A DNA stretch of 64,000 bases from Archaeoglobi archaeon JdFR-42 (GCA_002010305.1 MTND01000018.1:69795-133794), one strand, 5' to 3'; counted from the stretch's first letter, positions 4,151 to 46,660 are shown. Numbers and translations are program-made. The notes: generated by a model not told the origin, from the letters alone.

Positions 4151-4993
4151 ATGGATATTGAAAATCAGCTCATTTCAGAGATTAAAAGATGGAAACAACG
4201 ACTAGAAATACGGATGAGCAATGTACTTGAAAAAGAGATACATGGAATGGATTTCATAAAGAATATCCAGGCCTATCTCGCAGACACAGATTATTTTATG
4301 AATAAGAAGGACCTTATAAGGGCTTTCGAATGCGTGATCTGGGCATGGGCATGGTATGAAATTGGTGAAGAGCATAGTCTTCTGAAACACAATGGCAAAG
4401 TCCAAAAACGGTGGAGATCATTCAAACGAGAGGCATATGATAAATACCGCAATGCAGTCAATTCTGGAAAGGTTGATAAAGGGATAATCCCGATTCTGGA
4501 TGGATTTAATAGGTATCCTGAATTCGTAACTCTTTCAAGTTGCGAGGGTAGAATAACAGTACTGGACGTTGAAAAATTTGGAGATAAACACGGATCGATC
4601 CTTCTAGGAAAATGGCACTTCCCTGTGTCGTGGGAAGAGGTATATCGCACTCTCCAGCAATGTACCAGAGAAGGATGGTTGCGGGTAGAGGGGCCCATAT
4701 TCCACATCGCTGCAAATTCATTGAGTAAAGCCAAGTTGCTTGTCGAAATGGGGCTTAATGCTGGATTTAAAAGAACATCCATAATAGGTATATCCTCATG
4801 GAAGGCTGTTGTAGAGATCAGCACCACTGAAATTATGGAAGTGCCTCTCGTAAAAAATGGTAGTCTTATTGTCCCTGAATCCTATATTTCTATTGTAGTA
4901 GAACAGGCCAACTTAAAACTGGAAAGGTCGAAAGAAAAATTAAGTCGTTTGGTCAAAGAACTCCATCATTATTGTAATCATGAGAAAGATTAA
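4151..4993 (+). CDS. taw3: tRNA wyosine-derivative methyltransferase Taw3/TYW3 with an N-terminal DUF357-like extension
   Basis: LSSCEGRI (TYW3 S.CSGR-type motif), LGKWHFPV and WLRVEGPIFHIAA in the C-terminal 190 aa. The first ~80 aa (DLIRAFECVIWAWAWYEIGE) resemble the DUF357 helical domain. Confidence 0.65.
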   Translation: MDIENQLISEIKRWKQRLEIRMSNVLEKEIHGMDFIKNIQAYLADTDYFMNKKDLIRAFECVIWAWAWYEIGEEHSLLKHNGKVQKRWRSFKREAYDKYRNAVNSGKVDKGIIPILDGFNRYPEFVTLSSCEGRITVLDVEKFGDKHGSILLGKWHFPVSWEEVYRTLQQCTREGWLRVEGPIFHIAANSLSKAKLLVEMGLNAGFKRTSIIGISSWKAVVEISTTEIMEVPLVKNGSLIVPESYISIVVEQANLKLERSKEKLSRLVKELHHYCNHEKD

Positions 4994-5024
4994 AATACTT
5001 TGGTAACTGAATACATAAAGTACG

Positions 5025-5897
5025 ATGAATACAAAAGGAGAACTCAGTTTAGATGTAGTAATTGGACTCTCAATATTCATGATCGCCTTCATCTTTGTGG
5101 CCCAGTACATCCCATCTATTTTTGTAGTGGAGAATGAGGAACTGAGTTTGTATCCTCTTGCCTACCGGACCTCAGCTATTCTTGCCGAAGATAGTGGGTT
5201 TTGGAACAATGGGAGTGCCAATGGCACAGATTGGGAAAATCACCTCAATGTGGATTTAAGGATAGGATTATCTGGAGGAGGAGCGAACGTTTTGAGTGTA
5301 GAAAAGATAGCAGCCTTTAATGATTTCTACAACAATTATGGATATGAGTCTGTAAGAAGAGCCCTAGGTCTTGAAACACCTACTAGACAGTACGACTATA
5401 ATATCTCACTCCAGCTATTTGCCAGCAATAGCGGGCAGGTGAATTACGCCAGAAACCAATCCGGACCTTTGCTTCTCGTAGGAAATCCAGTCCCAGATAT
5501 AGGAAAAGTAGCAAGATATGAGAGAATAGTGGCCTACGATAACCTGACTGCAATAGCTTCCATTTCCAGCAATATTGGAACCCCAAGCACCACTGTTAAC
5601 ACTTTTAATGTGACTCCCCCCATTGGTGCTTTTATTATTGTGGTGGAAGATAGAAACACTAACCAGACAGCTAGTGAACCCTGGATGAATGTCAAGGTAA
5701 ACGGAAATCTGGTAATAAACGTCTCAGGAAACGCTACCATCACCACTTTCGATATTACGGATTATGTAAACGGATATTCTGAAACAGTGTATGTGTGGAT
5801 ACAGAGCCATAACATCCAAGGATATGTTGTTGTTACGGACGGAGGGGAGTATGTGGGAGGGAGACTTGGTGCCAAGCTCGTCGTTATCCTGTGGTAA
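5025..5897 (+). CDS. Surface protein with archaeal type IV pilin-like (class III) signal peptide
   Basis: The N-terminus MNTKG/ELSLDVVIGLSIFMIAFIFVAQ has a short charged leader, a Gly, then a hydrophobic helix. Many N-x-S/T sequons. First gene of an overlapping six-gene operon. Confidence 0.6.
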   Translation: MNTKGELSLDVVIGLSIFMIAFIFVAQYIPSIFVVENEELSLYPLAYRTSAILAEDSGFWNNGSANGTDWENHLNVDLRIGLSGGGANVLSVEKIAAFNDFYNNYGYESVRRALGLETPTRQYDYNISLQLFASNSGQVNYARNQSGPLLLVGNPVPDIGKVARYERIVAYDNLTAIASISSNIGTPSTTVNTFNVTPPIGAFIIVVEDRNTNQTASEPWMNVKVNGNLVINVSGNATITTFDITDYVNGYSETVYVWIQSHNIQGYVVVTDGGEYVGGRLGAKLVVILW

Positions 5898-6432
5898 CAG
5901 CAGATCAAAGGATAGAGGCCAAGCTTTCACTCTTGAAGGTGTGATAGCAGGAGTTCTTATACTGGTCGTAGCATATTTCCTGTTTCAAAGCACACTGATT
6001 GTATCACCCCTTTCAGGGGATATAGTGGATGTCCAGATCAGGCAATATGGACTGGATGCCCTCAACATCTTGAGTAACCCTCAGTCAGATGCCAATGATA
6101 CTCTTGAAAACTCTATTGCCAAACTCAACAGTTCAGTATATCCCACAGAACTACTTAACAGCTTGGATACCATTCTCCCAGATAACCTGGAATACAATCT
6201 AGAAATAGCCTATTTCAATATTACCACTAATCAGACTGGTATCTATCCAATCACAAATAAAAGCAATCCTCCAGACACAGTTACGGCTACTAAAATTATT
6301 GTTTTGAGAAATGGTCAGCTTGTCTCAGATTCTCCATTTAAAGTACCTGTTAATTACACCGATATTGAGAGTGTCAGCAATAGTGAGTTTCCAGTGGTTC
6401 TGGAGGTGAGACTGATACTATGGCGCATATGA
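5851..6432 (+). CDS. Pilin-like protein with class III signal peptide
   Basis: SKDRG/QAFTLEGVIAGVLILVVAYFLF motif. The track ORF starts at 5791 inside the previous gene. ATG 5851, TTG 5866 and GTG 5869 are all candidate starts, so the start is uncertain. Confidence 0.5.
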   Translation: MWEGDLVPSSSLSCGNSRSKDRGQAFTLEGVIAGVLILVVAYFLFQSTLIVSPLSGDIVDVQIRQYGLDALNILSNPQSDANDTLENSIAKLNSSVYPTELLNSLDTILPDNLEYNLEIAYFNITTNQTGIYPITNKSNPPDTVTATKIIVLRNGQLVSDSPFKVPVNYTDIESVSNSEFPVVLEVRLILWRI

Positions 6433-6854
6433 AATCTATGAGTACCAAGAAATTCACAGATGATGAAAATGGGCAAATCCTGATAATTATGGCTCTGCTA
6501 ATATCAGTCCTACTTGCTGGTCTATCCCTGTTATATACCCAGAATTTGCTGGCAGGGACCGAATCTGCATTAACTCAGCTTAATTTTCCAAAGAACGAGA
6601 TACGAGATTTAAACAGGATTGTGGAGGAGCAACTGGTATACTATGCAATTAATAACCCTGAGAATTTTCTGACATATGTCAGAGAACTGGATAAGCAGAT
6701 AACAATGATGTATGCCCTCCATGGCGCTTATGCAGATATAGATGTTTACGATGTTAAAACAAACATCAACGGAGATATCACCTCTTTTTCGGTGAAAATC
6801 ATTTTCAGTAACGCGGTGGTAGATTATGAACACACCAGACAGATTGTCATCTGA
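6420..6854 (+). CDS. Pilin-like protein with class III signal peptide
   Basis: DDENG/QILIIMALLISVLLAGLSLLY N-terminus. Overlaps the upstream gene by 13 nt and the downstream gene by 29 nt. Confidence 0.55.
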   Translation: MAHMKSMSTKKFTDDENGQILIIMALLISVLLAGLSLLYTQNLLAGTESALTQLNFPKNEIRDLNRIVEEQLVYYAINNPENFLTYVRELDKQITMMYALHGAYADIDVYDVKTNINGDITSFSVKIIFSNAVVDYEHTRQIVI

Positions 6855-9204
6855 TGAGAGGGGTGTCTCAATAATTCTTGAATACATCCTGATAATCGGA
6901 ATACTGGCAGTTTTCATGGGGGTGATAGTACTTCAGTTAAACGATATTTTTATAGAAACTCCCACAAGGGTAGCAATGAAAAACCAGTTTCAGGACATAG
7001 GTAATCAGATTGCGACCAAGCTGACCGATATATCCTTGATCGCACCCGATAACGGGTACATCAGAGCCAAGGTGTACATGCCATACGCCATAGGAGACTA
7101 CGATTATCGGGCTGAATTCACTTACATTGGGGGGGACTACGTCCTGAAAATTGAATCAGATAAGCTCAATAAGATTGAATACGTCCCTCTGAATAACTTG
7201 GCTCTTCAGATTATCCCTATGGGTTATACAATCAGCCTGAAAAAAGATCACGAACTCATATACACCAGTTCAACCCATCTCAAACCCACGGCTGTAGCTT
7301 TGGCTTATCCCACCAAGGTAGAAGTTGGCACCAACGTTACGTTCGACATGACTTATTCCACTGGAGAAGGAGACATTTGGTATCAGTGGGATTTTGGAGA
7401 TGGAAACTCAGCAAATGGACAGTATGACTCTGACAATCCTTCCAACTCTCTGGAAGATCATTCATATAATGTGGCAGGAAACTACACTGCAACACTGACA
7501 GTCTGGGATGCTCTTGGATATTCCGATACAGACTCGATCAATATAACAGTCCTACCATCTACTCCTGATCCCTTCCTTCATGCGGATAAATTTGTAACCC
7601 CTGATACAACTGAGCCGAACAACCCTGTTAGAATAACCCTGTATATCAGAGGTGGAGGGATAGTCTCAACAGCCCGAAATATCAGCGTGATACATGTCAC
7701 AGATGTTTCCGGTAGCATGGATCCAGATTATTATGGAGATAACGGGTATACACTATACACATCCAACAGTGGAACCGCAATTCCATCCAAATGGGAATCT
7801 AACATAACAGTAGACGGCAGTTTTTCAAGTCTTACAGTTATGGCATACTCAAACAATGGCAAAGATGTCGATCTATGGGTTAAATCTCCAGACGGCGATT
7901 TTGCAAGGGCCCAGTATCTTATAACCAACGGAGAGTTGTATTATGTGCAGAATCCTGTCGAGGGGGAATGGACGATCGCTGTGGTAGCGGATTATCCAAC
8001 AGACAGCGATACAGTCAATGTGGATGTAGAGAAGAACGGCTATTTCTGGGGATGGTGGTATATCTCAGGAACCCTTGTATCATCTTCAAGCTTCGTTCTT
8101 AATGGAAATGCCACCACGTTCAATCTCCAAATTCCATCTGTAGAGAATCTGAAAATTGAGGCCACTCCGGTGAACGGTAGCAAGGTACTTCACCTGTGGG
8201 TAGAGAAAGGCGCAACTCGTTATGGGCCTTACTCAGGCGCTTACGAAGAATCCAATGGTGGAGGGAATTATACAGCTTACGTTGTGGCTGATTTCCCCTA
8301 TGGAACTCAGGACTTTTACCTCTACACATCTATAGCCAAAATCGACGCTGCAAAGATCACAGCTAAAACCTTTAACGGATTTTTGAGGGGGAGCGATCAG
8401 GTTGGTGTAGTCTCGTTTGGTGGAACGGGAGGTAGTGGCAGGACGCCTAGAATAACTTTAGACCAGCCTCTGACCAATGATACCAATCAGGCAAATTCAA
8501 GTATAGATGGCCTGTGGGCTTATGGTGGAACCCCACTTGGAGGAGGTATAAAAACTGCCAGGGAAGAACTTGTTGCCAACACAACAGCAGGAAACATTCC
8601 CGTGATGATTATTCTGTCAGATGGAAACCCCACTATTACCTCCAGTGGGCAACCTTCTGAAACTTTGGCCATTCAGGAAGCTCTTGACGAAGCAAATGTC
8701 ACCAAACAGACAACTATCAACAATGAATCCATACTCATATACACCATTGGATTTGGACCAGATGCTAACGCAACATTATTGAAAGAGATAGCAAGTTCAC
8801 CCAATAATTACTATTTTGCTGCTACTTCTGAAGAGTTACAAAGCATATATGAACAGATTGCTAGAGAGTTAAGAGAGAAGGCTGCTCAGAATGTTACTGT
8901 AACAGATGTGCTTCCACCCGATGTAATACTTTCTGAGACACCTTCTGGAGCAAATGTCACCTACAGCAACGGGACGACTATAATTAGATGGGAAATACCA
9001 TCTATCCGGATTAACGAAACATGGACTGTGAGTTTTCTTGTCACTCCAACTTCAGCATCAGTAACAGAAACAAATGTCCCAAATGCGTCCAATGTAACTT
9101 TTCTACCTTTTCCTTTTGTAGGAGTGAACTTCACCACAATATACTTACCCCCTGGAGAGATTAACGTGACAAGCCTAGGAGCCAAAAAGGTTGAGCTACA
9201 ATGA
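6826..9204 (+). CDS. Large pilin-like adhesin candidate: class III signal peptide, PKD domain, and a vWA domain carrying an inserted beta-sandwich pair
   Basis: DERG/VSIILEYILIIGILAVFMGVIVL N-terminus. PKD signature WDFGDGNSANG...HSYNVAGNYTATLTVWD. vWA MIDAS DVSGSM at 7702-7719. The rest of the vWA fold follows later (KIDAAKITAKTF...VGVVSFGG...GGTPLGGGI...ILSDGNPT...IYTIGFG). The C-terminus is dense in N-x-S/T sequons. Confidence 0.7.
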   Translation: MNTPDRLSSDERGVSIILEYILIIGILAVFMGVIVLQLNDIFIETPTRVAMKNQFQDIGNQIATKLTDISLIAPDNGYIRAKVYMPYAIGDYDYRAEFTYIGGDYVLKIESDKLNKIEYVPLNNLALQIIPMGYTISLKKDHELIYTSSTHLKPTAVALAYPTKVEVGTNVTFDMTYSTGEGDIWYQWDFGDGNSANGQYDSDNPSNSLEDHSYNVAGNYTATLTVWDALGYSDTDSINITVLPSTPDPFLHADKFVTPDTTEPNNPVRITLYIRGGGIVSTARNISVIHVTDVSGSMDPDYYGDNGYTLYTSNSGTAIPSKWESNITVDGSFSSLTVMAYSNNGKDVDLWVKSPDGDFARAQYLITNGELYYVQNPVEGEWTIAVVADYPTDSDTVNVDVEKNGYFWGWWYISGTLVSSSSFVLNGNATTFNLQIPSVENLKIEATPVNGSKVLHLWVEKGATRYGPYSGAYEESNGGGNYTAYVVADFPYGTQDFYLYTSIAKIDAAKITAKTFNGFLRGSDQVGVVSFGGTGGSGRTPRITLDQPLTNDTNQANSSIDGLWAYGGTPLGGGIKTAREELVANTTAGNIPVMIILSDGNPTITSSGQPSETLAIQEALDEANVTKQTTINNESILIYTIGFGPDANATLLKEIASSPNNYYFAATSEELQSIYEQIARELREKAAQNVTVTDVLPPDVILSETPSGANVTYSNGTTIIRWEIPSIRINETWTVSFLVTPTSASVTETNVPNASNVTFLPFPFVGVNFTTIYLPPGEINVTSLGAKKVELQ

Positions 9205-9920
9205 GATCTAATGAAATGAGAGTTGGAAAAAGAGGGAATCTGGGTGTTTCTGAAGTAGTGGGAAATATTTTCGTGATAGCGATCCTCATAGCCGGTACTT
9301 CCATCCTGCTGGTTTATGGTTTTCCAACCATAGACGAGAATAAAAATAAGATACGGATGAGAAATATCGTATCTCAGATGTCTATTGTTAATGAGCAGAT
9401 TGCCAAAGTTTACATGGACGTTGCCCCAACAACCACTATCAGGATAGCTCTTTCTGATGGCTCCATTGTCATCTCTAATGGAAATAATTTTCTTGTTAGA
9501 GTGTATGATCCCGGAGGAGGGTTGATACATGAGATTAATGACTCAATGGGCAAAATAGAGTACACATACCGCTCCAATAGGGGTGTCTTTGAAAATGGAG
9601 GTGTGTGGGTGGATGACTTACTTGTCACTCCTCCAAGAATCACAGTGGATAATGGATCGATTACCATGGCCCTTATTAAGATACAGGGAAGCGGTTCAGC
9701 AGGAGGTAAAGGATTTGCGGACCTTACTGTGAGATATAACTCTTCCCAGATAAACAGATTTGAGACCTCTGGATATGTCGAGATAACATTTACATCAGAT
9801 TATGCCGATAAATGGAGTGAGTTTTTCCAGAGCATCAATGCCACTGTAAACGGAAATACGGCACGTTTAAACTTTACCAGGCTGATCATAGCAGAATATA
9901 CGGTAAACATAGAGGTATAA
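9201..9920 (+). CDS. Archaeal type IV pilin N-terminal domain protein (paralog A)
   Basis: GNLG/VSEVVGNIFVIAILIAGTSILLVYG matches the archaeal Pilin_N pattern (AVSxVIG + hydrophobic helix). ATGA overlap with the upstream gene. Shares FENGGVW...KIQG...GF.DL.V..NSS...FE..GYV....TSDYA..W..(F/Y)F blocks with the next gene. Confidence 0.65.
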   Translation: MRSNEMRVGKRGNLGVSEVVGNIFVIAILIAGTSILLVYGFPTIDENKNKIRMRNIVSQMSIVNEQIAKVYMDVAPTTTIRIALSDGSIVISNGNNFLVRVYDPGGGLIHEINDSMGKIEYTYRSNRGVFENGGVWVDDLLVTPPRITVDNGSITMALIKIQGSGSAGGKGFADLTVRYNSSQINRFETSGYVEITFTSDYADKWSEFFQSINATVNGNTARLNFTRLIIAEYTVNIEV

Positions 9921-9921
9921 C

Positions 9922-10725
9922 ATGGAAGAGGATGAAAAATCGTCGGAACTGAAGAAATTCATTTATTCTGAACTGGCTGTATCAGAAATACTAGGCTATA
10001 TAATGGTTCTAGGACTCATTATAGCTGCAATTTCTCTCGTATTTGTTCAAACTTCTTCTATGGCTTCTGATGCCCAAGATGTTGTCAAGTACAGGAGTAT
10101 GGTACAAGGATTCAGAAAGATCCAGAATGTGGTTGATTACACTGCCTATATGAACAACCCTGAGAAAAGTATCCGAATTCTAATGAACGAAGGGAGGATT
10201 TACATCGACCACGACAATAATATTAGCCTTGAGATCAGGAGCAACAACACTACACAATACCTTTATGAAAGCGACATGGGAGTTATCGAATATGCTTACC
10301 AGAACTATGTGATTGGTTTCGAGAACGGAGGGGTCTGGATGAGGGAACTGAACCAAACTTCTATGATTTTCGAACCGAGGATATTCATATACAAAAAGAG
10401 TATTAACAATGAGACTGTTGTGTTCGTAGCCCTTGTAAAAATCCAAGGAGACGATTTCATAGCTGGAAACGGATTTGTCGACCTTTCAGTATTATTCAAC
10501 TCCTCTGAAACCAGGATATTTGAGGGTGGTGGGTACGTTAATATGGATATTACTTCTGACTACGCTTCCGCCTGGGAAGATTATTTCGAGACCATGAGGG
10601 GATACACTAACAACACAGTATTACAGACTGGACTTAACGGCAGCACCGTTACGGCCCAGATATATTTCGACAGACTGATTTTAACTATCTATTCACTGGA
10701 TGTGCAAATCAGTCTTCAAACATGA
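9922..10725 (+). CDS. Archaeal type IV pilin N-terminal domain protein (paralog B)
   Basis: SELA/VSEILGYIMVLGLIIAAISLVF N-terminus. Collinear similarity to 9201..9920. Confidence 0.65.
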   Translation: MEEDEKSSELKKFIYSELAVSEILGYIMVLGLIIAAISLVFVQTSSMASDAQDVVKYRSMVQGFRKIQNVVDYTAYMNNPEKSIRILMNEGRIYIDHDNNISLEIRSNNTTQYLYESDMGVIEYAYQNYVIGFENGGVWMRELNQTSMIFEPRIFIYKKSINNETVVFVALVKIQGDDFIAGNGFVDLSVLFNSSETRIFEGGGYVNMDITSDYASAWEDYFETMRGYTNNTVLQTGLNGSTVTAQIYFDRLILTIYSLDVQISLQT

Positions 10726-10745
10726 GATTGGAAAAGGTATCTACT

Positions 10746-12449
10746 TCACGACTCAGACTTAATATCTGATACCTTCTCAACGATCTTCCCTACAAAATCG
10801 AAATTCAGATTCAGGGCTAAAAGAGCTACTCGGGTAACAAGTCTTGAATCTACACCAGTATTTAGCTGGGAACGTATAAGGATCGGCAACAGCTCTTCTT
10901 TTGGTTCTTTGTTTTGAACGGTTCCATAGGCTTTTATTACTGTGATGACCCCATCTACTAGTTCATTGGTTATTTCGACATCAAACTTATCGAAGTTTTT
11001 AAGCAAGCTCATAGCTAGATCTGCATCAAGGATGTCGTCAAAAATCAGCTTGTGCAGTGCAAATTCGTACTTCAACAATTCCTTTGCTTTTTTTATGTGA
11101 TCCCTTCCAAACTTGGGAAAATCCAAAATAATACAGTTTCTGATATCTATATACAAGGAATTGTTAGTAACCTCGTAAGCGCTGTCTGCGATCAGATTAA
11201 TGGCATTGAGAGGGGTATCATCATCCACCTTATTCAGTTCTTGTTCTCTAGCATACTTCACCATAAGGAAGAGCGGGAGCTTGAGAAGATCATCCTTATC
11301 GTATTCATCAATTATCTCCATCCATTCCTCAAAATCTTCCTCTGTCAATCGTTCTTTCAGTGCCTTCTCATATTCCCTTAATCTATCTTCATACTCTCTC
11401 TCCCTAGATTTCTTTCGGAACATAATATTGTGAATAGCTTTCAATAATGTAGTTATTATCAGATCTTTCTCAGGAACCCCTGTTTCAGAAATCAGGGACA
11501 TGGCAGAGATAAGATGATTGACTACGAACATATCTCCCGCGAGGATCTGATACACAACTCGTGTCACGGATATTATAAACTCCATAATAAAATCTACAGT
11601 CATGGAAAATTTTTGGGTATATAAAATTTCGAGATCTCTAAAGCGTTTTGCTACTTCTTTGAGATTAACTTCATAGCATTCTTCAATATGTTCCATTATT
11701 TTTTTCGCTTTAGGATGATCGAGATCCACAATGGGCAACCATGCGCTCATGATCTGAATCTCAAATTTAATTTTCTCCACCAGATTCTCAACATCATCGT
11801 TTCCAAAATCTGGGGCAGGGCAGAATTTTTTCACACCTATCAGATTATATAGATGCTCAAGATAACTATCTGTGAAAGAGCGCGCCATGATCCTGCGATC
11901 TGCAAATATGTCTTTAAGAGTTAAGATGGTTTTTTTAAGCACATCTTTCATTATATCTTGGGAGTCTTTCACCGGAAGTTCCTCTGCCAGAGCTTTAACC
12001 ACATTGTATACCTTCTCTACTCCGATTTCTATATCTCTGTCAATCCCTGCTTTTCTGTGGATTGCATGCATAATCTCATGGGCAAAGAGACCTTCAAGAG
12101 CTTTTTTGTTAGCTTTGAGATAAGATCCATCTCCAGATACAAAAATAAAGACGAAATCCACATCATCTACATCGAAAGAGAAGGGTACACCACTCTTTGC
12201 ATACTCTGAGAGTTCATCAAGCATATTCCCAGATAAACCTGTTTCTCTCAATTTTTTCAAGGCATAATCTGTAGTTTCACAGATAAAAACCCTGAGGTCC
12301 ATCTGTTCAAGTTCTTCAAATTTTTCTGTTACAGAGTCAAGTATCTGATGATAATACAGTTCCTCCGCCTCATAAAGCTCAAGAATTTCTTCGAGTTTTT
12401 CTGTAGACTCTTTTGGTCTCTCAGAAGTCTCAATGATCAACCGATACAT
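10746..12449 (-). CDS. Hypothetical acidic, largely helical protein with an HExxH motif (possible zincin-like domain)
   Basis: 567-aa ORF with no hydrophobic segments seen. AHEIMHAIH follows a beta-rich segment DVDFVFIFVSGDGSYL. I do not recognise the family. Confidence 0.5.
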   Translation of the reverse strand: MYRLIIETSERPKESTEKLEEILELYEAEELYYHQILDSVTEKFEELEQMDLRVFICETTDYALKKLRETGLSGNMLDELSEYAKSGVPFSFDVDDVDFVFIFVSGDGSYLKANKKALEGLFAHEIMHAIHRKAGIDRDIEIGVEKVYNVVKALAEELPVKDSQDIMKDVLKKTILTLKDIFADRRIMARSFTDSYLEHLYNLIGVKKFCPAPDFGNDDVENLVEKIKFEIQIMSAWLPIVDLDHPKAKKIMEHIEECYEVNLKEVAKRFRDLEILYTQKFSMTVDFIMEFIISVTRVVYQILAGDMFVVNHLISAMSLISETGVPEKDLIITTLLKAIHNIMFRKKSREREYEDRLREYEKALKERLTEEDFEEWMEIIDEYDKDDLLKLPLFLMVKYAREQELNKVDDDTPLNAINLIADSAYEVTNNSLYIDIRNCIILDFPKFGRDHIKKAKELLKYEFALHKLIFDDILDADLAMSLLKNFDKFDVEITNELVDGVITVIKAYGTVQNKEPKEELLPILIRSQLNTGVDSRLVTRVALLALNLNFDFVGKIVEKVSDIKSES

Positions 12450-12815: not shown

Positions 12816-13040
12816 ATGTATCTAATTATGATACGTTGTAAAATGAAAACTCTGTGGAAGATTATAGCGTGGGTTTCTATAATATGTGGATTAGTCTCAT
12901 ACTTTATAGCGTGGGGTGTCATGTTTACAGGATCTGTTTTATGGGACGTTCCAACCGAATTCTGGTTTTATGACGCCATAGCTGCCAGTATATTCGGAGT
13001 TTTCTTTCTGGTGTATGCTATATATACAGATCGAAAATAA
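12816..13040 (+). CDS. Small two-TM membrane protein (hypothetical)
   Basis: Two hydrophobic helices (IIAWVSIICGLVSYFIAWGVMF and AIAASIFGVFFLVYAIY). The start is more likely MKTLWK at 12843. Lies in an otherwise non-coding AT-rich stretch. Confidence 0.35.
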   Translation: MYLIMIRCKMKTLWKIIAWVSIICGLVSYFIAWGVMFTGSVLWDVPTEFWFYDAIAASIFGVFFLVYAIYTDRK

Positions 13041-13284
13041 AGAAGGTAAATGAATTGCATTGCAAGTCTATTATAATATAACTCCCGTTTTTCCTAGCAG
13101 TTAATCGTTCCATAGTCTTTTCACATAAACTATAAAGGACTAGGATAACATAGATAAATATGATCAAAATTACGTTTATCTTCATTTTTGAATATATTGT
13201 ATACAGTATTAGATAAAAAGATTATCGAAATATGTGGTTTTCTGTCAAAGATAGGACATTATAATATTATAATCAGTAAAAAAG

Positions 13285-13356
13285 CGGGCTCGCCGAGATT
13301 CGAACTCGGGTCGGCGGGTCCGAAGCCCGCAAGGATATCCTCTACCCCACGAGCCC
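13285..13356 (-). tRNA. tRNA-Arg (anticodon TCG)
   Basis: Hand-folded from the reverse complement GGGCTCG-TG-...-GCGGG-CTTCGGA-CCCGC-...-CCGAG-TTCGAAT-CTCGG-CGAGCCC-G. Gives a cloverleaf with a 7-bp acceptor stem. No encoded CCA. Confidence 0.85.
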
Positions 13357-15660: not shown

Positions 15661-17457
15661 CTAAAAGACTATGTATAGTTTCCTGCCTTTTTCCATATTT
15701 TCGGCCAAAATTTTTCCAAGCTCTTTATCCTTGCGCACCCGTATATATCCTTTACTGCTGACAGTAGGACTGAACAAATAGGTCCCATCTACATATAAAT
15801 CCACCGTTTTCTTTTCCAGACCAAGAGCCTGAATTATATAGTATCTGGCAGTCTCATCCACCATGGCTTCAATCTTATTCTCACGTTTTAGCTCTCTAAC
15901 ATCTATTTTTATCCCAAACTCCTTCTCAATGGCTGTGATATTACTACCCTTTCTCCCAAGAATACGAGGGATTTCGTTTTCTGGAACCATAACAATAGCC
16001 TTCCTATCCGATATCAACTCTACTTTCGCCTCAGAAACATATTTCCTGACTACCTGTTCAAGGGATTTTTCAATAACGCCATAGGACTTTTTCCTTTCTT
16101 TTTTCTTCACGGGCATCACGATGATTTCCTCGCCATAAGTGTAAATCTCAAACTTCACCTCTTTGTCCTCAAAGGTCCTGACTTCTATAACTGGCCTCGA
16201 AAGGTCTTCTTCATACATTCCATAAGGGACTTTAACGGTAAACTCAAGTTCGTAAACTTCAGCCACTTTTCCAGCTTCGATAAACACTATGGTATCCACC
16301 ACCTGTGGTATGACTCCCAGTTCAACCCTACCGAGCATCCGCTGGATGGCATCGATGGGACGAGTAGCATGCATTACACCTATCATCCCTACTCCTGCTA
16401 GCCTCATATCCGCAAAAATTTGGAAGTCCGATGTCTTTCTTACTTCATCATAGATGGTATAATCAGGCCTCACCAACAACAAAATATCAGCCGTAAGGGC
16501 CATATTTCCTTCAAGAGGAGAATACTGAGTTATTTCATCTTTCACTATCAGATCCCTCGGAGACTCCATAGTTTTTACAATATATCCTTGACCCAGAAGA
16601 TACTCTGCAAGACTTGCAGCGAAAGTAGACTTTCCGGCTCCCGGGGGCCCAGCAATCAGGATACCTCTCTGAGTTTCAATGAATCGTTTCTTCAACTCCT
16701 CGCTGAGGTTGTATTCATCCAGTGACACTTTTGCCACTGGTCTCACGGCAGTAATTTCAAGACCGTCTGAAAATGGAGGTCTGGCTATAGCTATCCTCAG
16801 CTCCTTAAGTTGCACCACCGTCACTCCAAGACGTTCAATTTCTATAAAACAGTCAGGATTCTGTCTCGCTGCTTCAAGGATTTCCTGGGCCATCTCCCTT
16901 AACTCTCTTTCTCTGCATGGAGATTCCCTGACCTTCACCAACTTTAAAGCACCGAGTTTCCCTTTTTTAGCAAGAGGTGGAACGCTCTCTTTCAGGTGAA
17001 CTGACATGGTCTCAGGATCAAAGAAGTCCCAGATTTTTATCCTATAAGGATCAAGCCTTTCCTGTTTAACAAACAAGACTTCTATTCCCTTCGAAGAAGC
17101 GACATCAGCCTGAACTCGATCACTCGTAACCAGTATAGCCCCTTCATCAATTGCCACCTTTCGGATTTTGTCATCAATAGCACCTGCTTTTGAAAGCTGG
17201 ATCTCTTCCATCGTTGGTCGCTCTCCTACAAATTTAAGCTCTATAAACCCATCTTTTGCATATTCCTGGAGTTGCTTTACTTCGTTAATCCCCACCATGC
17301 CTGTTTCTCTACCATAGTTAGCCTGGCTTTCTAGCTCAGCAATTACAGATTCTGGAACGATTACAGTTCCCCGGATGGTACCCTCCTCAACCAGAGGAGT
17401 TGCTCTGCCATCCACCAGAACACTTGTATCAATTACATATCTCAATTTATTATTCAC
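15661..17457 (-). CDS. PIN domain / PilT-like ATPase / KH domain protein (PINA-type)
   Basis: N-terminal PIN-like [11 protein letters not shown], Walker [12 protein letters not shown], and C-terminal [22 protein letters not shown]. Confidence 0.8.
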
Positions 17458-17913: not shown

Positions 17914-18645
17914 GTGTGGAAATTGGCAGAGTATATCTCCACTGGGATTCAAACCCTGGACACTCTCCTAGGGGGTGGATATCAGACAGGGAACATATTT
18001 CTTCTTCTAGAAGAACCTGGAGCGGGAGGTGCAGTTTTCGGATATCATTTCATAGCTTCAAATACACTTCCTTCAGATAAAAGACCTTTGTTCATTTCTA
18101 CCAACTCCACTGCCGAAGAAATATGGGAAAAACTCCATGAGATTAACAGAAATCTCACGAAAGAGTCTGTTCAGGTGGTTGATCTATTCGCTCAGCGGTT
18201 CCCTACTCTTCTCTCAAAATCAGGTACCTCTCTATCTGCAGCAGAGTACCTTAGGAGCGGGTATGACCCGCTTAATCACACCAAATCAGTTATCAACAGA
18301 GGGTCCTTTACGAAATGTGTTATTGACTCCCTGTCTTATTTTATCCTGAACTACAAATTCGATGAAATCATAGAATTCATAGAATTCTGTTCAATGGTTG
18401 TTCGTAAAAATGATAGCGTCATTTTGATGACTATGGGAAAAGGTATGCATGACCCGAGAACTGAAACTGCCATTATGTACGAAGTTGACGGAGTTTTTGA
18501 GATGGCGGTTCATGAAAAAGAGACCGGACTTGAACGAACGGTCAAATTCAGAAAAATGCCGGGCCTTAAAATACCTAAAGAAATAATCAGATATGACCTG
18601 AGCGAAAAAGGAATTAAAATGGATATGCTACGAAGGGTGCTTTGA
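17914..18645 (+). CDS. RecA/KaiC-superfamily domain protein with a degenerate Walker A
   Basis: ISTGIQTLDTLLGGGYQTGNIFLLLEEPGAGGAVF follows the RadA/KaiC N-terminal pattern. The GxxGxGK(T/S) P-loop is replaced by GAGGAVF, with no Lys-Thr. GTG start. Confidence 0.6.
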   Translation: MWKLAEYISTGIQTLDTLLGGGYQTGNIFLLLEEPGAGGAVFGYHFIASNTLPSDKRPLFISTNSTAEEIWEKLHEINRNLTKESVQVVDLFAQRFPTLLSKSGTSLSAAEYLRSGYDPLNHTKSVINRGSFTKCVIDSLSYFILNYKFDEIIEFIEFCSMVVRKNDSVILMTMGKGMHDPRTETAIMYEVDGVFEMAVHEKETGLERTVKFRKMPGLKIPKEIIRYDLSEKGIKMDMLRRVL

Positions 18646-45607: not shown

Positions 45608-46257
45608 CAGGTCACCTCAAGGAAAGCTGCGTCTCCTATCACGAGGAGGCTTTCATCTTTTCCAAGGAGGGGTAAAACACTGTATCTTCCTAGAGGGGTG
45701 TTTTCATCAATCAAAAAGGTGAAGCTTACCATGCCTTCTTCATCTGTGGTTCCTACTTTCTCTGTATAGATTCCACCTTGTGGGGAATAAACGACTATTT
45801 TTGCATACAAACCACCGAAATCTACTTCCTCTTCGTGATCTTCAGCATCCGAATGATCTTCACTATCCTTATGATCCTCCTCATCTAAATGCTCATCCAC
45901 ATTCTGACCTGTGATATGTCCTCTTTCATCTGCTTGGTCTTTATGATCTGCATCTTCATCTACACTCTTTACTTCATCATGCCCTTCATTTGAACTCTCT
46001 TCTTCATCAGCTCTATGATCGTGACCACCATCTCCATGACCTGCGAGAACTTTCAAAGTCACCGTAATTTCTGCTGGTTTTTTAACCACTTTATCCTCCA
46101 GTTCTACCACCGGTGTCACATGAGGTGGCTCTTCCTCAGCCTGCTCTCCTACGACAGATGCATAACCGAAAACCACCACCGCTCCTATGAGTATTAATGA
46201 GAAGAATATTACAGGAGGAAAAGATAGAAAGTCCCTAATTTTACCCATCTCACTCAC
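45607..46257 (-). CDS. Membrane-anchored His/Asp/Glu-rich protein with a beta-sandwich-like C-terminus (putative metal-binding)
   Basis: N-terminal TM helix. A 74-residue stretch (GHGDGGHDH...EDHEEEVD) holds 10 His by my count and is dominated by D/E. The C-terminus YAKIVVYSPQGGIYTEKVGTTDEEGMVSFTF is Ig/CarboxypepD_reg-like. Confidence 0.55.
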   Translation of the reverse strand: MSEMGKIRDFLSFPPVIFFSLILIGAVVVFGYASVVGEQAEEEPPHVTPVVELEDKVVKKPAEITVTLKVLAGHGDGGHDHRADEEESSNEGHDEVKSVDEDADHKDQADERGHITGQNVDEHLDEEDHKDSEDHSDAEDHEEEVDFGGLYAKIVVYSPQGGIYTEKVGTTDEEGMVSFTFLIDENTPLGRYSVLPLLGKDESLLVIGDAAFLEVT

Positions 46258-46660
46258 CTTCCACTATAATTATGCCCCTCATATAATGGTGTATGGGGCT
46301 GCATACCACGGTACATTCAAACATATACACTCCTTCTTCCTTAGGAGTGAACTCGACCACCTTTTTTTCCCCTGGTTCTATCGGCCCAAGATCTATCCCA
46401 AGAGCTTCGCTTTTAAATCCATGAACCACATCCATCCCCTCTACCACCAGTTTCACTGTTTCTCCTTTCTTCACCCGTATCACTCCTGGATCAAAACCAC
46501 CCGATTCCTGTATGTAAGCCCTTATCAGGATTGTATTGGGCTCTCTTTTTTCTGGCATGACATAGTTATCCAGCAACGGAAGGGATACTGTTCCAATTAC
46601 TGCAATAGTAAGCACCAATGCTACAATTTCCCAGAAGATTCCTCTATTCATATATATCAC
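46250..46660 (-). CDS. Membrane-anchored cupredoxin with a CuA-type ligand motif
   Basis: TM anchor followed by VVHGF...x35...C-TVV-C-SPI-H-HY-M. This is H...C-x3-C-x3-H-x2-M, the spacing of the binuclear CuA site in CoxII/NosZ. Confidence 0.65.
   Translation of the reverse strand: MIYMNRGIFWEIVALVLTIAVIGTVSLPLLDNYVMPEKREPNTILIRAYIQESGGFDPGVIRVKKGETVKLVVEGMDVVHGFKSEALGIDLGPIEPGEKKVVEFTPKEEGVYMFECTVVCSPIHHYMRGIIIVEGE

What the first reader, a model, noticed from the sequence alone, without database searches (positions are those of the whole stretch)
5025..10725. Six-gene operon of class III signal-peptide (type IV pilin-like) proteins without an adjacent assembly ATPase, platform or prepilin peptidase
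All six consecutive plus-strand ORFs begin with a short charged leader, a Gly, then a ~20-residue hydrophobic helix:
- TKG/ELSLDVVIG
- DRG/QAFTLEGVIAG
- ENG/QILIIMALL
- ERG/VSIILEYIL
- NLG/VSEVVGNIF
- ELA/VSEILGYIM

The genes overlap or abut at 5851/5897, 6420/6432, 6826/6854, an ATGA at 9201-9204, and 9920/9922. The mature parts are rich in N-x-S/T sequons, as expected for glycosylated archaeal surface proteins. The last two genes are paralogs.

The composition is several small pilin-like subunits plus one very large PKD/vWA subunit. This recalls a minor-pilin/tip-adhesin priming complex rather than a major-filament locus. That analogy with bacterial minor pilins and the vWA-containing PilY1 is inference. 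No PilB/PilC-like genes lie within this window.
Basis: partly seen in the sequence, partly recalled or inferred. Interest (0 to 1): 0.6.

Follow-up and report, generated by a model that had tools for sequence, protein, structure and literature searches.

The report
Archaeal type IV pilin gene cassette
This is a real six-gene operon for pilus subunits, one carrying a large sticky adhesin domain, from an Archaeoglobus-like archaeon; the same cassette is already catalogued in related archaea, and its assembly motor lies elsewhere in the same genome, so it is ordinary.

Summary
Six overlapping or abutting + strand genes (5025-10725) each encode one N-terminal hydrophobic helix behind a short leader ending in Gly or Ala. 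Sequons are enriched about 6-fold, genes 5 and 6 are paralogs, and gene 4 carries PKD and vWA domains. The window has no PilB or TadC gene.

It is not an orphan or a new system. The proteins fall in Pfam DUF7287, DUF7288, DUF7266 and DUF7289. The cassette is colinear with the pilin set of the euryarchaeal clade 2 "PilB4-type" pilus of Makarova et al. 2016.

The same cassette sits directly beside a T2SSE ATPase and T2SSF platform in A. veneficus, four metagenomic Archaeoglobi lineages and Haloferax mediterranei. It stands alone in A. fulgidus (published table) and two further lineages.

The window's own assembly (GCA_003935005.1) encodes a PilB-TadC pair plus another pilin-like gene on contig RSFX01000002.1.

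Gene 4 is a modular pilin: an N-terminal helix and small pilin domain, then PKD, a split vWA domain with an invariant MIDAS, and a C-terminal Ig-like domain. Its model most resembles pilus tip adhesins (SpaC, Mfa5, RrgA).

Most likely the cassette supplies accessory pilins and an adhesin to a pilus assembled in trans. The tip location is inferred. No prepilin peptidase was located. Verdict: a new member of a known kind, low interest.

The parts
4990..4997 (+). TATA-like box (TTAAAATA) 28-35 nt upstream of the ORF1 ATG; putative archaeal promoter of the cassette
   Evidence: An A/T box sits at the same distance upstream of ORF1 orthologs in L006, L007, L008, L057 and L059. The promoter role is inferred.
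5025..5897 (+). ORF1, 290 aa pilin-like protein (N-terminus matches DUF7287); leader MNTKG|ELSLD
   Evidence: It matches the strict class III pattern. It has 9 sequons against 4.0 +/- 1.8 expected.
5851..6432 (+). ORF2, 193 aa, DUF7288 family pilin-like protein; ...KDRG|QAFTLEG
   Evidence: Pfam DUF7288, 80 bits, E 3e-22. A GGAGG precedes the ATG at 5851. The KGQAFTLEG motif is conserved in orthologs.
6420..6854 (+). ORF3, 144 aa small pilin-like protein; DDENG|QILII. It occupies the position of arCOG06552 / DUF7261.
   Evidence: No Pfam hit above threshold (DUF7261 E 0.22). Orthologs carry (K/R)G|QI(I/V)I. Its position is colinear with the DUF7261 gene of H. mediterranei and with arCOG06552 of A. 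fulgidus.
6826..9204 (+). ORF4, 792 aa modular pilin: leader ...DERG|VSIILEY, pilin module, PKD, split vWA, C-terminal Ig-like domain
   Evidence: Pfam DUF7266, PKD and VWA, plus a sub-threshold DUF11 hit. AF2 model mean pLDDT 84. 29 full-length sequences were aligned. Best PDB matches are pilus tip adhesins.
6865..7269 (+). ORF4 pilin module (aa 14-148): long alpha-helix plus small beta domain, DUF7266
   Evidence: Model: helix 12-72, strands 77-148. DUF7266 at 31.9 bits. 86 representative clusters share this module, always at the N-terminus.
7282..7554 (+). ORF4 PKD domain (aa 153-243)
   Evidence: PKD_4 E 6.5e-13. TMt 0.86-0.89 to the ColG PKD domains.
7681..8871 (+). ORF4 vWA domain (aa 286-682), interrupted by two beta-sandwich insertions (aa 308-504). 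MIDAS residues D293, S295, S297, T569, D599.
   Evidence: The Pfam VWA model covers only aa 521-677. The AF2 topology shows the split. The MIDAS residues are invariant in the 29 aligned sequences.
8878..9198 (+). ORF4 C-terminal beta-sandwich (aa 685-791), DUF11/CLIPPER-like
   Evidence: DUF11 E 1.8e-4, 22.2 bits, below the 24.6-bit cut-off. All-beta in the model.
9201..9920 (+). ORF5, 239 aa, DUF7289 family pilin-like protein; ...GNLG|VSEVVG
   Evidence: DUF7289, 71 bits. Orthologs have K(A/G)|VSEV(V/I)G.
9922..10725 (+). ORF6, 267 aa, DUF7289 paralog; ...SELA|VSEILG
   Evidence: DUF7289, 81.6 bits. 33% identical to ORF5. AF2 mean pLDDT 86: helix 2-76 followed by a beta-rich domain.

Best explanation
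The six genes are the pilin-subunit cassette of a euryarchaeal type IV pilus. This is the clade 2 'PilB4-type' of Makarova et al. 2016, called 'System 2' by Sivabalasarma and Albers 2026. Here the cassette is encoded apart from its motor.

Proposed mechanism:
1. Each product is inserted in the membrane by its N-terminal hydrophobic helix.
2. A class III (A24-type) prepilin peptidase removes the short leader after the conserved Gly/Ala.
3. A PilB-type ATPase and TadC-type platform, encoded in trans, extract the subunit into a filament. A pair of this kind lies on contig RSFX01000002.1 of the same assembly.
4. The exposed parts are N-glycosylated.

ORF4 is a modular pilin whose PKD-vWA(MIDAS)-Ig modules mediate metal-dependent adhesion. 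The five small proteins and ORF4 most likely form the accessory (minor-pilin) and adhesin part of the pilus, probably its tip. The bulk filament would be made by another pilin.

Shown: family membership, colinearity, linkage to ATPase/TadC in relatives, motor genes in the same assembly, domain architecture and an intact MIDAS.

Inferred: cleavage, glycosylation, which motor serves the cassette, and tip location.
For: - Pfam assigns ORF1, 2, 4, 5 and 6 to DUF7287, DUF7288, DUF7266 and DUF7289 (x2), all above the gathering scores.
- The same order, DUF7287-DUF7288-DUF7261-DUF7266-DUF7289, follows a T2SSE ATPase and a T2SSF gene on Haloferax mediterranei pHME505.
- The six-gene cassette lies directly beside T2SSE+T2SSF in A. 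veneficus (L006), L007, L008/9, L010 and L011.
- Makarova 2016 Table S4 lists the same cassette in A. fulgidus: arCOG06117, 04652, 06552, 03926 (959 aa), 02911 x2, all labelled clade_2 pilins.
- The same assembly, GCA_003935005.1, encodes a 518-aa T2SSE ATPase that is 58% identical to the cassette-linked A. veneficus ATPase. It is followed by a 640-aa T2SSF and a 539-aa protein with the N-terminus KNG|VSSILGF.
- Leader motifs are conserved across orthologs.
- AF2 models of ORF4 and ORF6 show a 60-75-residue N-terminal helix followed by beta domains.
- The MIDAS residues are invariant in the 29 aligned sequences.
- The top PDB fold matches are the pilus tip adhesins SpaC, Mfa5, RrgA, GBS104 and PitA.
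- Sequon enrichment indicates surface exposure.
- In S. sanguinis, a vWA modular pilin is modelled at the tip because it clashes sterically in the filament body (PMC8179133).
- The Haloferax locus has a separate Pilin_N gene just downstream.
Against: - No experimental data exist for any member of this cassette.
- The prepilin peptidase of this genome was not located.
- ORFs 3, 5 and 6 lack K/R at position -2.
- Pfam Pilin_N is not significant (E 0.13).
- The ORF6 model found no pilin in the PDB by Foldseek.
- The in-trans ATPase is only 58% identical to the cassette-linked ATPases and has its own pilin-like gene. It may serve a different pilin set.
- Makarova et al. predicted arCOG03926, the ORF4 family, to be the major pilin and not a tip subunit.
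- No PilA/Pilin_N major pilin was found in the window.
- The genome is a MAG, so absences are weak evidence.
Confidence: 0.55

Rival explanations
1. Same family, different role. The cassette is a self-sufficient filament set that includes its own major pilin, as in the Makarova 2016 model where arCOG03926 is the major subunit. Alternatively one of the small proteins, such as ORF3 or a DUF7289 paralog, is the major subunit. The trans ATPase/TadC would build a whole pilus from these six proteins alone.
For: - Makarova et al. state that the PilB4-type system has its own predicted major pilin and is unlikely to depend on PilA.
- The DUF7266 module is mostly found as a plain 130-195 aa pilin, about 60 of 86 clusters.
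- No Pilin_N gene lies near the cassette in the window or in the Archaeoglobi loci with Pfam tables on record.
Against: - In Archaeoglobi the DUF7266 protein carries about 640 extra residues. By analogy with S. sanguinis PilB, these should clash in a filament body.
- Six distinct single-copy subunits kept in fixed order from Halobacteria to Archaeoglobi look like an ordered minor-pilin complex.
- Archaeal major pilins are usually stand-alone genes.
Confidence: 0.3
2. The cassette is stranded. It lost its dedicated PilB/TadC by rearrangement and is no longer assembled, so it is silent or drifting.
For: - The cassette-linked ATPase clade (74-90% identical to the A. veneficus ATPase) was not found for this assembly. 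Its best ATPase is 58% identical.
- The downstream neighbour is a lineage-specific orphan gene in a lower-GC stretch next to a tRNA gene.
Against: - All six ORFs are intact and 40-64% identical to orthologs in the related loci, up to 77% for ORF4.
- The MIDAS and leader motifs are conserved.
- A TATA-like box is kept at the same distance upstream.
- The stand-alone arrangement recurs in A. fulgidus, L057/58 and L059.
- No ATPase or TadC relics flank it.
- Identical copies occur in several independent samples.
Confidence: 0.07
3. They are not filament subunits. They are Sec-inserted, signal-anchored surface proteins, or a short non-filament anchor comparable to ArlF/ArlG or the bindosome, that merely display an adhesin at the S-layer.
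For: - Three leaders are non-canonical.
- There is no significant Pilin_N match.
- Makarova et al. label arCOG03926 'FlaG/FlaF/PilA family'.
Against: - The cassette is tightly and repeatedly linked to T2SSE/T2SSF genes in five Archaeoglobi lineages and in Haloferax.
- A G/A is conserved exactly in front of the hydrophobic helix.
- The models show the long-helix lollipop architecture.
Confidence: 0.08

Closest known systems
Euryarchaeal clade 2 'PilB4-type' type IV pilus pilin set (Makarova, Koonin and Albers 2016, PMC4858521; arCOG06117, 04652, 06552, 03926, 02911). Called 'System 2' by Sivabalasarma and Albers 2026.
   Same: Same Pfam families. Same gene order as A. fulgidus NC_000917 678040-683939 and as the H. 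mediterranei pHME505 locus. A large arCOG03926 protein sits in fourth position and duplicated arCOG02911/DUF7289 genes at the end. In A. fulgidus the cassette also stands alone, away from the ATPase/TadC pairs.
   Different: Nothing essential. This copy has a lineage-specific context: TYW3 upstream and an orphan HExxH protein downstream. Three of its leaders lack K/R at -2. Haloarchaeal versions have a plain 147-aa DUF7266 pilin and one DUF7289 gene.
Modular type IV pilins, archetype PilB of Streptococcus sanguinis (Raynaud et al. 2021, PMC8179133)
   Same: An N-terminal pilin module carries a vWA module with a functional-looking MIDAS flanked by inserted beta 'arms'. The predicted role is a direct adhesin presented by the filament, probably at its tip.
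   Different: The resemblance is by analogy, not demonstrated homology. ORF4 has an archaeal class III leader and a DUF7266 pilin module instead of the bacterial IPR012902 N-methylation motif. It has extra PKD and C-terminal Ig-like domains and a much larger two-domain insertion in the vWA fold. That survey covered bacteria only.
Bacterial minor-pilin / PilY1 priming complex (FimU-PilVWX-PilE + PilY1; GspHIJK)
   Same: Several different low-abundance pilin-like subunits are encoded in one operon together with a vWA-bearing adhesin.
   Different: PilY1 is not a pilin and is defined by a C-terminal beta-propeller (IPR008707). ORF4 is itself a pilin, and no PilY1-type domain appeared in its Pfam scan. 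None of the six proteins matched a bacterial pilin family in the Pfam scans.
Sortase- and type V-pilus tip adhesins with vWA domains (SpaC, RrgA, GBS104, PitA, Mfa5)
   Same: These are the best structural matches of the ORF4 model (Foldseek E 1e-11 to 1e-7): a vWA domain with inserted arms flanked by Ig-like domains.
   Different: They are attached by entirely different assembly chemistry (sortase or strand exchange). Global TM-scores are low (0.17-0.30).
Methanococcus maripaludis Epd pilus minor pilins (EpdA-C and others)
   Same: An archaeal operon encoding multiple pilin-like proteins that are needed for piliation but are not the major subunit. The major pilin is encoded elsewhere.
   Different: It belongs to a different ATPase clade (System 1) and different pilin families, and it has a dedicated peptidase.

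Membership tests
Type IV filament pilins (class III signal peptide proteins) | Short charged leader, Gly/Ala at -1, then a hydrophobic helix of about 20 residues as the only membrane segment | tested here: met
   One N-terminal hydrophobic segment in each protein. ORFs 1, 2 and 4 pass the strict [KR][GA] pattern. ORFs 3, 5 and 6 have G/A at -1 but N/L at -2; their orthologs have K/R there.
Type IV filament pilins (class III signal peptide proteins) | Leader cleaved by an A24 prepilin peptidase (PibD/FlaK/EppA) | not testable with these tools
   This needs biochemistry or mass spectrometry. The peptidase gene of this genome was not located. A motif (regex) search found none in the window or in any locus fetched up to that point. 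A. fulgidus has a FlaK/PulO gene.
Type IV filament pilins (class III signal peptide proteins) | Lollipop fold: a long N-terminal alpha-helix followed by a beta-rich globular domain | tested here: met
Type IV filament pilins (class III signal peptide proteins) | Match to the archaeal pilin N-terminal models (Pfam PF07790 Pilin_N; NCBIfam scan, in which I expected TIGR02537) | tested here: not met
   Best result is ORF6 against Pilin_N, E 0.13, 13.5 bits against a cut-off of 25.2. NCBIfam gave nothing. Makarova et al. report HHpred probability 96.9 for arCOG02911 against TIGR02537.
Type IV filament system (locus level) | PilB/ArlI-type ATPase and TadC/ArlJ-type platform encoded with the pilins | tested here: not met
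   None in the 64 kb window. The feature is met in trans: T2SSE and T2SSF lie on RSFX01000002.1 of the same assembly. It is met in cis in five orthologous loci and in Haloferax.
Euryarchaeal clade 2 PilB4-type pilin set | Membership of DUF7287, DUF7288, DUF7266 and DUF7289 above Pfam gathering scores | tested here: met
   Scores against cut-offs: 36.5/27 (N-terminus only), 80.6/27, 28.7/27.6 (31.9 for the isolated module), 71.1/27 and 81.6/27.
Euryarchaeal clade 2 PilB4-type pilin set | Third gene belongs to DUF7261 / arCOG06552 | tested here: inconclusive
   ORF3 against DUF7261 gives E 0.22. Position and size agree with arCOG06552 of A. fulgidus and with the DUF7261 gene of H. mediterranei.
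Euryarchaeal clade 2 PilB4-type pilin set | Conserved gene order | tested here: met
   The order is identical in L006, L007, L008/9, L057/58 and L059, in A. fulgidus and in H. mediterranei.
Modular pilins (S. sanguinis PilB type) | Pilin module fused to a vWA module with a complete MIDAS (DxSxS...T...D) | tested here: met
   D293, S295, S297, T569 and D599 are invariant in the 29 aligned sequences. The vWA fold is present in the model and in the PDB matches.
Modular pilins (S. sanguinis PilB type) | Bacterial class III motif / IPR012902 N-terminal methylation domain | not tested
   No dedicated test was run. None of the six proteins matched a bacterial pilin or N-methylation family in the Pfam scans. 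The relation is treated as analogy only.
PilY1 / PilC tip adhesins | C-terminal PilY1 beta-propeller (IPR008707; Pfam Neisseria_PilC by my recollection) | tested here: not met
   No such family appears in the Pfam scan of ORF4 at E <= 0.1. The C-terminus is a beta-sandwich in the model.

The most novel reading that the evidence does not exclude
In Archaeoglobi, the pilin that Makarova et al. predicted to be the major subunit of the PilB4-type pilus has become a roughly 800-aa PKD-vWA modular pilin. The conserved six-gene set would then be the archaeal counterpart of the bacterial minor-pilin tip complex. It would act as a portable 'adhesin cartridge' with its own promoter that can plug into whichever PilB/TadC motor the genome holds. 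No archaeal tip complex or vWA modular pilin has been characterised experimentally.
Probability: 0.4. Interest if true: 0.45.

Novelty: new member of a known kind. Interest (0 to 1): 0.22.

Why it matters
The locus adds little on its own. The cassette, its families and even its stand-alone arrangement are already in the 2016 census of archaeal type IV pili and in Pfam.

Its modest value is as a clean example of modular evolution, with pilin sets and motors moving independently. It also points to an unstudied class of archaeal modular pilins. The DUF7266 module occurs as about 60 short and about 24 long (500-1623 aa) representative clusters. Seven of the ten long ones scanned carry vWA, and some carry PKD, PA14 or Ig-like modules.

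Because A. fulgidus, A. veneficus, Geoglobus and Haloferax are cultivable, these could be used to ask whether archaeal pili have tip complexes like bacterial ones.

Tried and rejected
- **Pilin family models.** The Pfam Pilin_N and NCBIfam archaeal pilin models gave no significant match.
- **Finding the motor by genome scan.** A genome-contig scan with the A. veneficus ATPase returned 41 loci, none from the window's assembly. The ATPase was found instead through the protein database and an exact contig look-up.
- **ATPase or TadC relics.** tblastn found no significant match around 10.7-12.5 kb.
- **Prepilin peptidase.** A motif search of the window and all loci fetched up to that point found none. 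No query sequence or remaining database search was available to look in the rest of the genome.
- **Downstream 567-aa ORF as part of the system.** Rejected. It is on the opposite strand, has no signal or membrane segment, no family match and no homolog in any related locus.
- **Geoglobus look-up.** The exact look-up for Geoglobus acetivorans GACE_0486 failed because the protein is not on record.
- **Organism name.** The Archaeoglobi assignment rests on best homologs only.

Full report
**1. Observation**

The six + strand ORFs are present exactly as described.

| ORF | Coordinates | Length |
|---|---|---|
| 1 | 5025-5897 | 290 aa |
| 2 | 5851-6432 | 193 aa |
| 3 | 6420-6854 | 144 aa |
| 4 | 6826-9204 | 792 aa |
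| 5 | 9201-9920 | 239 aa |
| 6 | 9922-10725 | 267 aa |

The ATG of ORF2 at 5851 follows a GGAGG.
- Each product has a single hydrophobic segment, and it is N-terminal.
- A strict FlaFind-like pattern, run over all frames and alternative starts of the 64 kb window, hits ORFs 1, 2 and 4. Its only other hits are an unrelated ORF at 46250-46651 and a 55-58 aa start internal to the 46657-48735 gene, which I discount.
- ORFs 3, 5 and 6 have Gly/Ala at -1 but N, L and L at -2.
- Aligning orthologs from four other lineages shows that the family motifs are conserved:
  - ORF1: xG|(Q/E/K)LS(L/I)D
  - ORF2: (K/R)G|QAFTLEG
  - ORF3: (K/R)G|QI(I/V)I
  - ORF4: (K/R)(G/A)|(V/A/T)S(I/V)L(I/V)EY
  - ORF5: K(A/G)|VSEV(V/I)G
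  - ORF6: x(A/G)|(V/I)S(N/E)(V/I)L
- The window's three odd leaders are therefore variants of a conserved site.
- Sequons run at 2.6 per 100 aa against 0.39 in 17 cytoplasmic ORFs of the window. They exceed the protein's own composition shuffle by more than 2 sd in ORFs 1, 2, 4 and 6.
- ORFs 5 and 6 are paralogs at 33% identity, E 1e-33.
- The window has no PilB or TadC gene and no relic of one. The only T2SSE-like signal is the PIN-ATPase-KH protein at 15661-17457.

**2. What it is**

Pfam places the proteins in dedicated families:

| ORF | Family | Score |
|---|---|---|
| 1 | DUF7287 (N-terminus only) | 36.5 bits |
| 2 | DUF7288 | 80 bits |
| 4 | N-terminus DUF7266, then PKD and VWA; DUF11 below its cut-off | 28.7 bits (31.9 for the isolated module) |
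| 5 | DUF7289 | 71 bits |
| 6 | DUF7289 | 82 bits |
| 3 | none above threshold | DUF7261 E 0.22 |

Pilin_N is not significant (ORF6 E 0.13).

*Source of the window.* It is part of NCBI assembly GCA_003935005.1, contig RSFX01000001.1. Identical copies occur in JGI and Logan assemblies. The closest named homologs are from Archaeoglobus veneficus and Geoglobus.

*Cassette next to a motor.* The same six-gene cassette, in the same order, lies directly beside a T2SSE ATPase and a T2SSF platform gene in these loci:
- A. veneficus (L006)
- L007 (motor upstream)
- L008/L009
- L010 (divergent orientation)
- L011

*Haloferax.* On H. mediterranei pHME505 the order is as follows:
1. ATPase (931 aa)
2. T2SSF
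3. DUF7287
4. DUF7288
5. DUF7261
6. DUF7266 (147 aa)
7. DUF7289
8. after a gap, a Pilin_N gene

*Published census.* Makarova, Koonin and Albers 2016 (PMC4858521) describe this as the second type of euryarchaeal clade 2 pilus, typified by the H. volcanii PilB4 locus, which has its own pilin set. They note that ATPase/TadC modules and pilin sets evolve and relocate independently.

Their Table S4 lists the six-gene cassette of A. fulgidus between TFIIE-alpha and rpl7Ae, with no motor adjacent:
- arCOG06117, arCOG04652 and arCOG06552
- arCOG03926 (959 aa)
- arCOG02911 x2

Two ATPase/TadC pairs and the FlaK/PulO peptidase lie elsewhere in that genome.

*Other stand-alone copies.* I found further stand-alone cassettes in L057/58 and in L059, a Geoglobus-like assembly. 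L057/58 shares the upstream CarS and HMPTM radical-SAM genes with the window. L060 is a reduced two-gene form.

The detached arrangement is therefore a common, already catalogued state.

**3. The motor in this genome**

Among homologs of the A. veneficus ATPase, P0050 (518 aa, 58% identity) is encoded on RSFX01000002.1 of the same assembly. It is followed by two genes:
- a 640-aa T2SSF protein
- a 539-aa Big_1 protein with the N-terminus KNG|VSSILGF, which resembles the DUF7289 leaders (hhalign E 7e-4 over the N-terminal 64 columns)

Whether this pair is the cognate motor is not established. I could not locate the prepilin peptidase.

**4. Anatomy of ORF4**

I aligned ORF4 with 28 homologs from the protein search (35-77% identical). 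The AF2 model has mean pLDDT 84 and this layout:

| Residues | Element |
|---|---|
| 12-72 | long alpha-helix |
| 77-148 | small beta domain (the DUF7266 pilin module) |
| 153-243 | PKD domain |
| 286-307 | first vWA strand, with DxSxS at 293-297 |
| 308-504 | two inserted beta-sandwiches |
| 505-682 | rest of the vWA fold |
| 685-791 | C-terminal beta-sandwich |

- The MIDAS residues D293, S295, S297, T569 and D599 are invariant.
- The best PDB matches are the vWA-bearing pilus tip adhesins SpaC, Mfa5, RrgA, GBS104 and PitA. E-values run from 1e-11 to 1e-7, with low global TM-scores.
- The pilin module alone finds 86 representative clusters, bimodal in length. About 60 are 130-195 aa. About 24 are 500-1623 aa, always with the module at the N-terminus.
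- Seven of ten long ones carry vWA. Others carry PKD, PA14, DUF7507 or Big_7.
- ORF4 is thus an archaeal modular pilin. It is functionally analogous to S. sanguinis PilB, a vWA modular pilin shown to be an adhesin and modelled at the tip (PMC8179133).
- ORF6 models as a 75-residue helix plus a beta-rich domain, pLDDT 86.

**5. Mechanism**

Shown:
- family membership
- colinearity of the cassette
- repeated linkage to PilB/TadC in relatives
- motor genes in the same assembly
- domain architecture and an intact MIDAS
- sequon enrichment

Inferred from established type IV filament biology:
- membrane insertion
- leader removal by an A24 peptidase after the conserved G/A
- ATPase-driven polymerisation through the N-terminal helices
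- N-glycosylation

A further inference is that the six proteins form the accessory and adhesin (tip) part of the pilus, not the shaft. Reasons for this:
- There are six different single-copy subunits in fixed order.
- ORF4 is very bulky.
- A separate Pilin_N gene lies next to the Haloferax locus.
- Archaeal major pilins are usually stand-alone genes.

Against it, Makarova et al. assigned arCOG03926 as the major pilin. I put about 0.9 on the family identity and about 0.55 on the full statement including the tip role.

A conserved TATA-like box lies 26-35 nt upstream of ORF1 in six lineages. This suggests the cassette has its own promoter and a nearly leaderless transcript. This too is inferred.

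**6. Comparison and novelty**

The locus is a member of the clade 2 / System 2 pilin set. It works like a modular-pilin adhesin system. It is not a PilY1 system, because ORF4 has no PilY1 domain and is itself a pilin.

Novelty: a new member of a known kind. Interest is low. The only forward-looking aspect is that archaeal modular pilins and tip complexes remain experimentally untouched.

**7. Limits**

- The organism name was not retrievable.
- The genome is a MAG.
- The peptidase and any additional motors or PilA genes were not surveyed.

Noticed in passing
window 10746-12449 (- strand), with 12816-13040 and tRNA-Arg 13284-13356: The convergent 567-aa ORF directly downstream of the cassette has an HEIMH (HExxH) motif. 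It has no Pfam, NCBIfam, PHROG, PDB or viral-contig match and no homolog in any related locus. The 10-14 kb stretch has lower GC (0.36-0.39 against about 0.41) and ends at a tRNA gene, so it may be a lineage-specific insertion.
   Followed up: partly
window 46250-46651 (- strand): A 133-aa ORF has a class III-like N-terminus (MNRG|IFWEIVALVLTIAVIG). Outside the cassette it is the one free-standing ORF in the window that passes the strict pattern. It sits in a cluster of cupredoxin, MG2-like, DUF63 and Fer4_5 membrane proteins (43.7-48.7 kb).
   Followed up: no
L052 (RSFX01000002.1) 7279-12365: This is the in-trans motor locus of the same assembly: T2SSE (518 aa), T2SSF (640 aa) and a 539-aa Big_1/Invasin_D3 protein with a pilin-like leader, KNG|VSSILGF. 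The third protein is probably another modular pilin of the arCOG02911 kind.
   Followed up: partly
proteins P0168-P0252 (homologs of ORF4 aa 1-156): The DUF7266 pilin module family is bimodal in length. About 60 clusters are plain 130-195 aa pilins. About 24 clusters are 500-1623 aa with vWA, PKD, PA14, DUF7507/DUF11 or Big_7 modules. This is a diverse set of archaeal modular pilins.
   Followed up: partly
window 4990-4997; L006, L007, L008, L057, L059 upstream of ORF1 orthologs: A conserved TATA-like box (TTTATAA / CTAAAAT / TTAAAATA) lies about 26-35 nt before the ORF1 start in six lineages, whatever the neighbouring genes. This suggests the cassette has its own promoter and a very short 5' leader.
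   Followed up: partly
L060 9092-12367: A reduced arrangement. Only a DUF7287-like 296-aa gene and the 788-aa PKD/vWA modular pilin are present, with no DUF7288 or DUF7289 hit among the called genes within 10 kb.
   Followed up: no
L054-L056 (ATPase P0027): A T2SSE ATPase 74% identical to the cassette-linked type stands alone next to a TBP gene, with neither TadC nor pilin genes adjacent.
   Followed up: no
window 15661-17457 (-) and 17914-18645 (+): A PIN-ATPase-KH protein gives the only, weak, T2SSE-like signal in the window. A KaiC-like ATPase (PF06745 plus DUF7125) lies 5-8 kb downstream of the cassette. Makarova et al. proposed KaiC-family ATPases as pilus regulators, but no link was examined here.
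   Followed up: no
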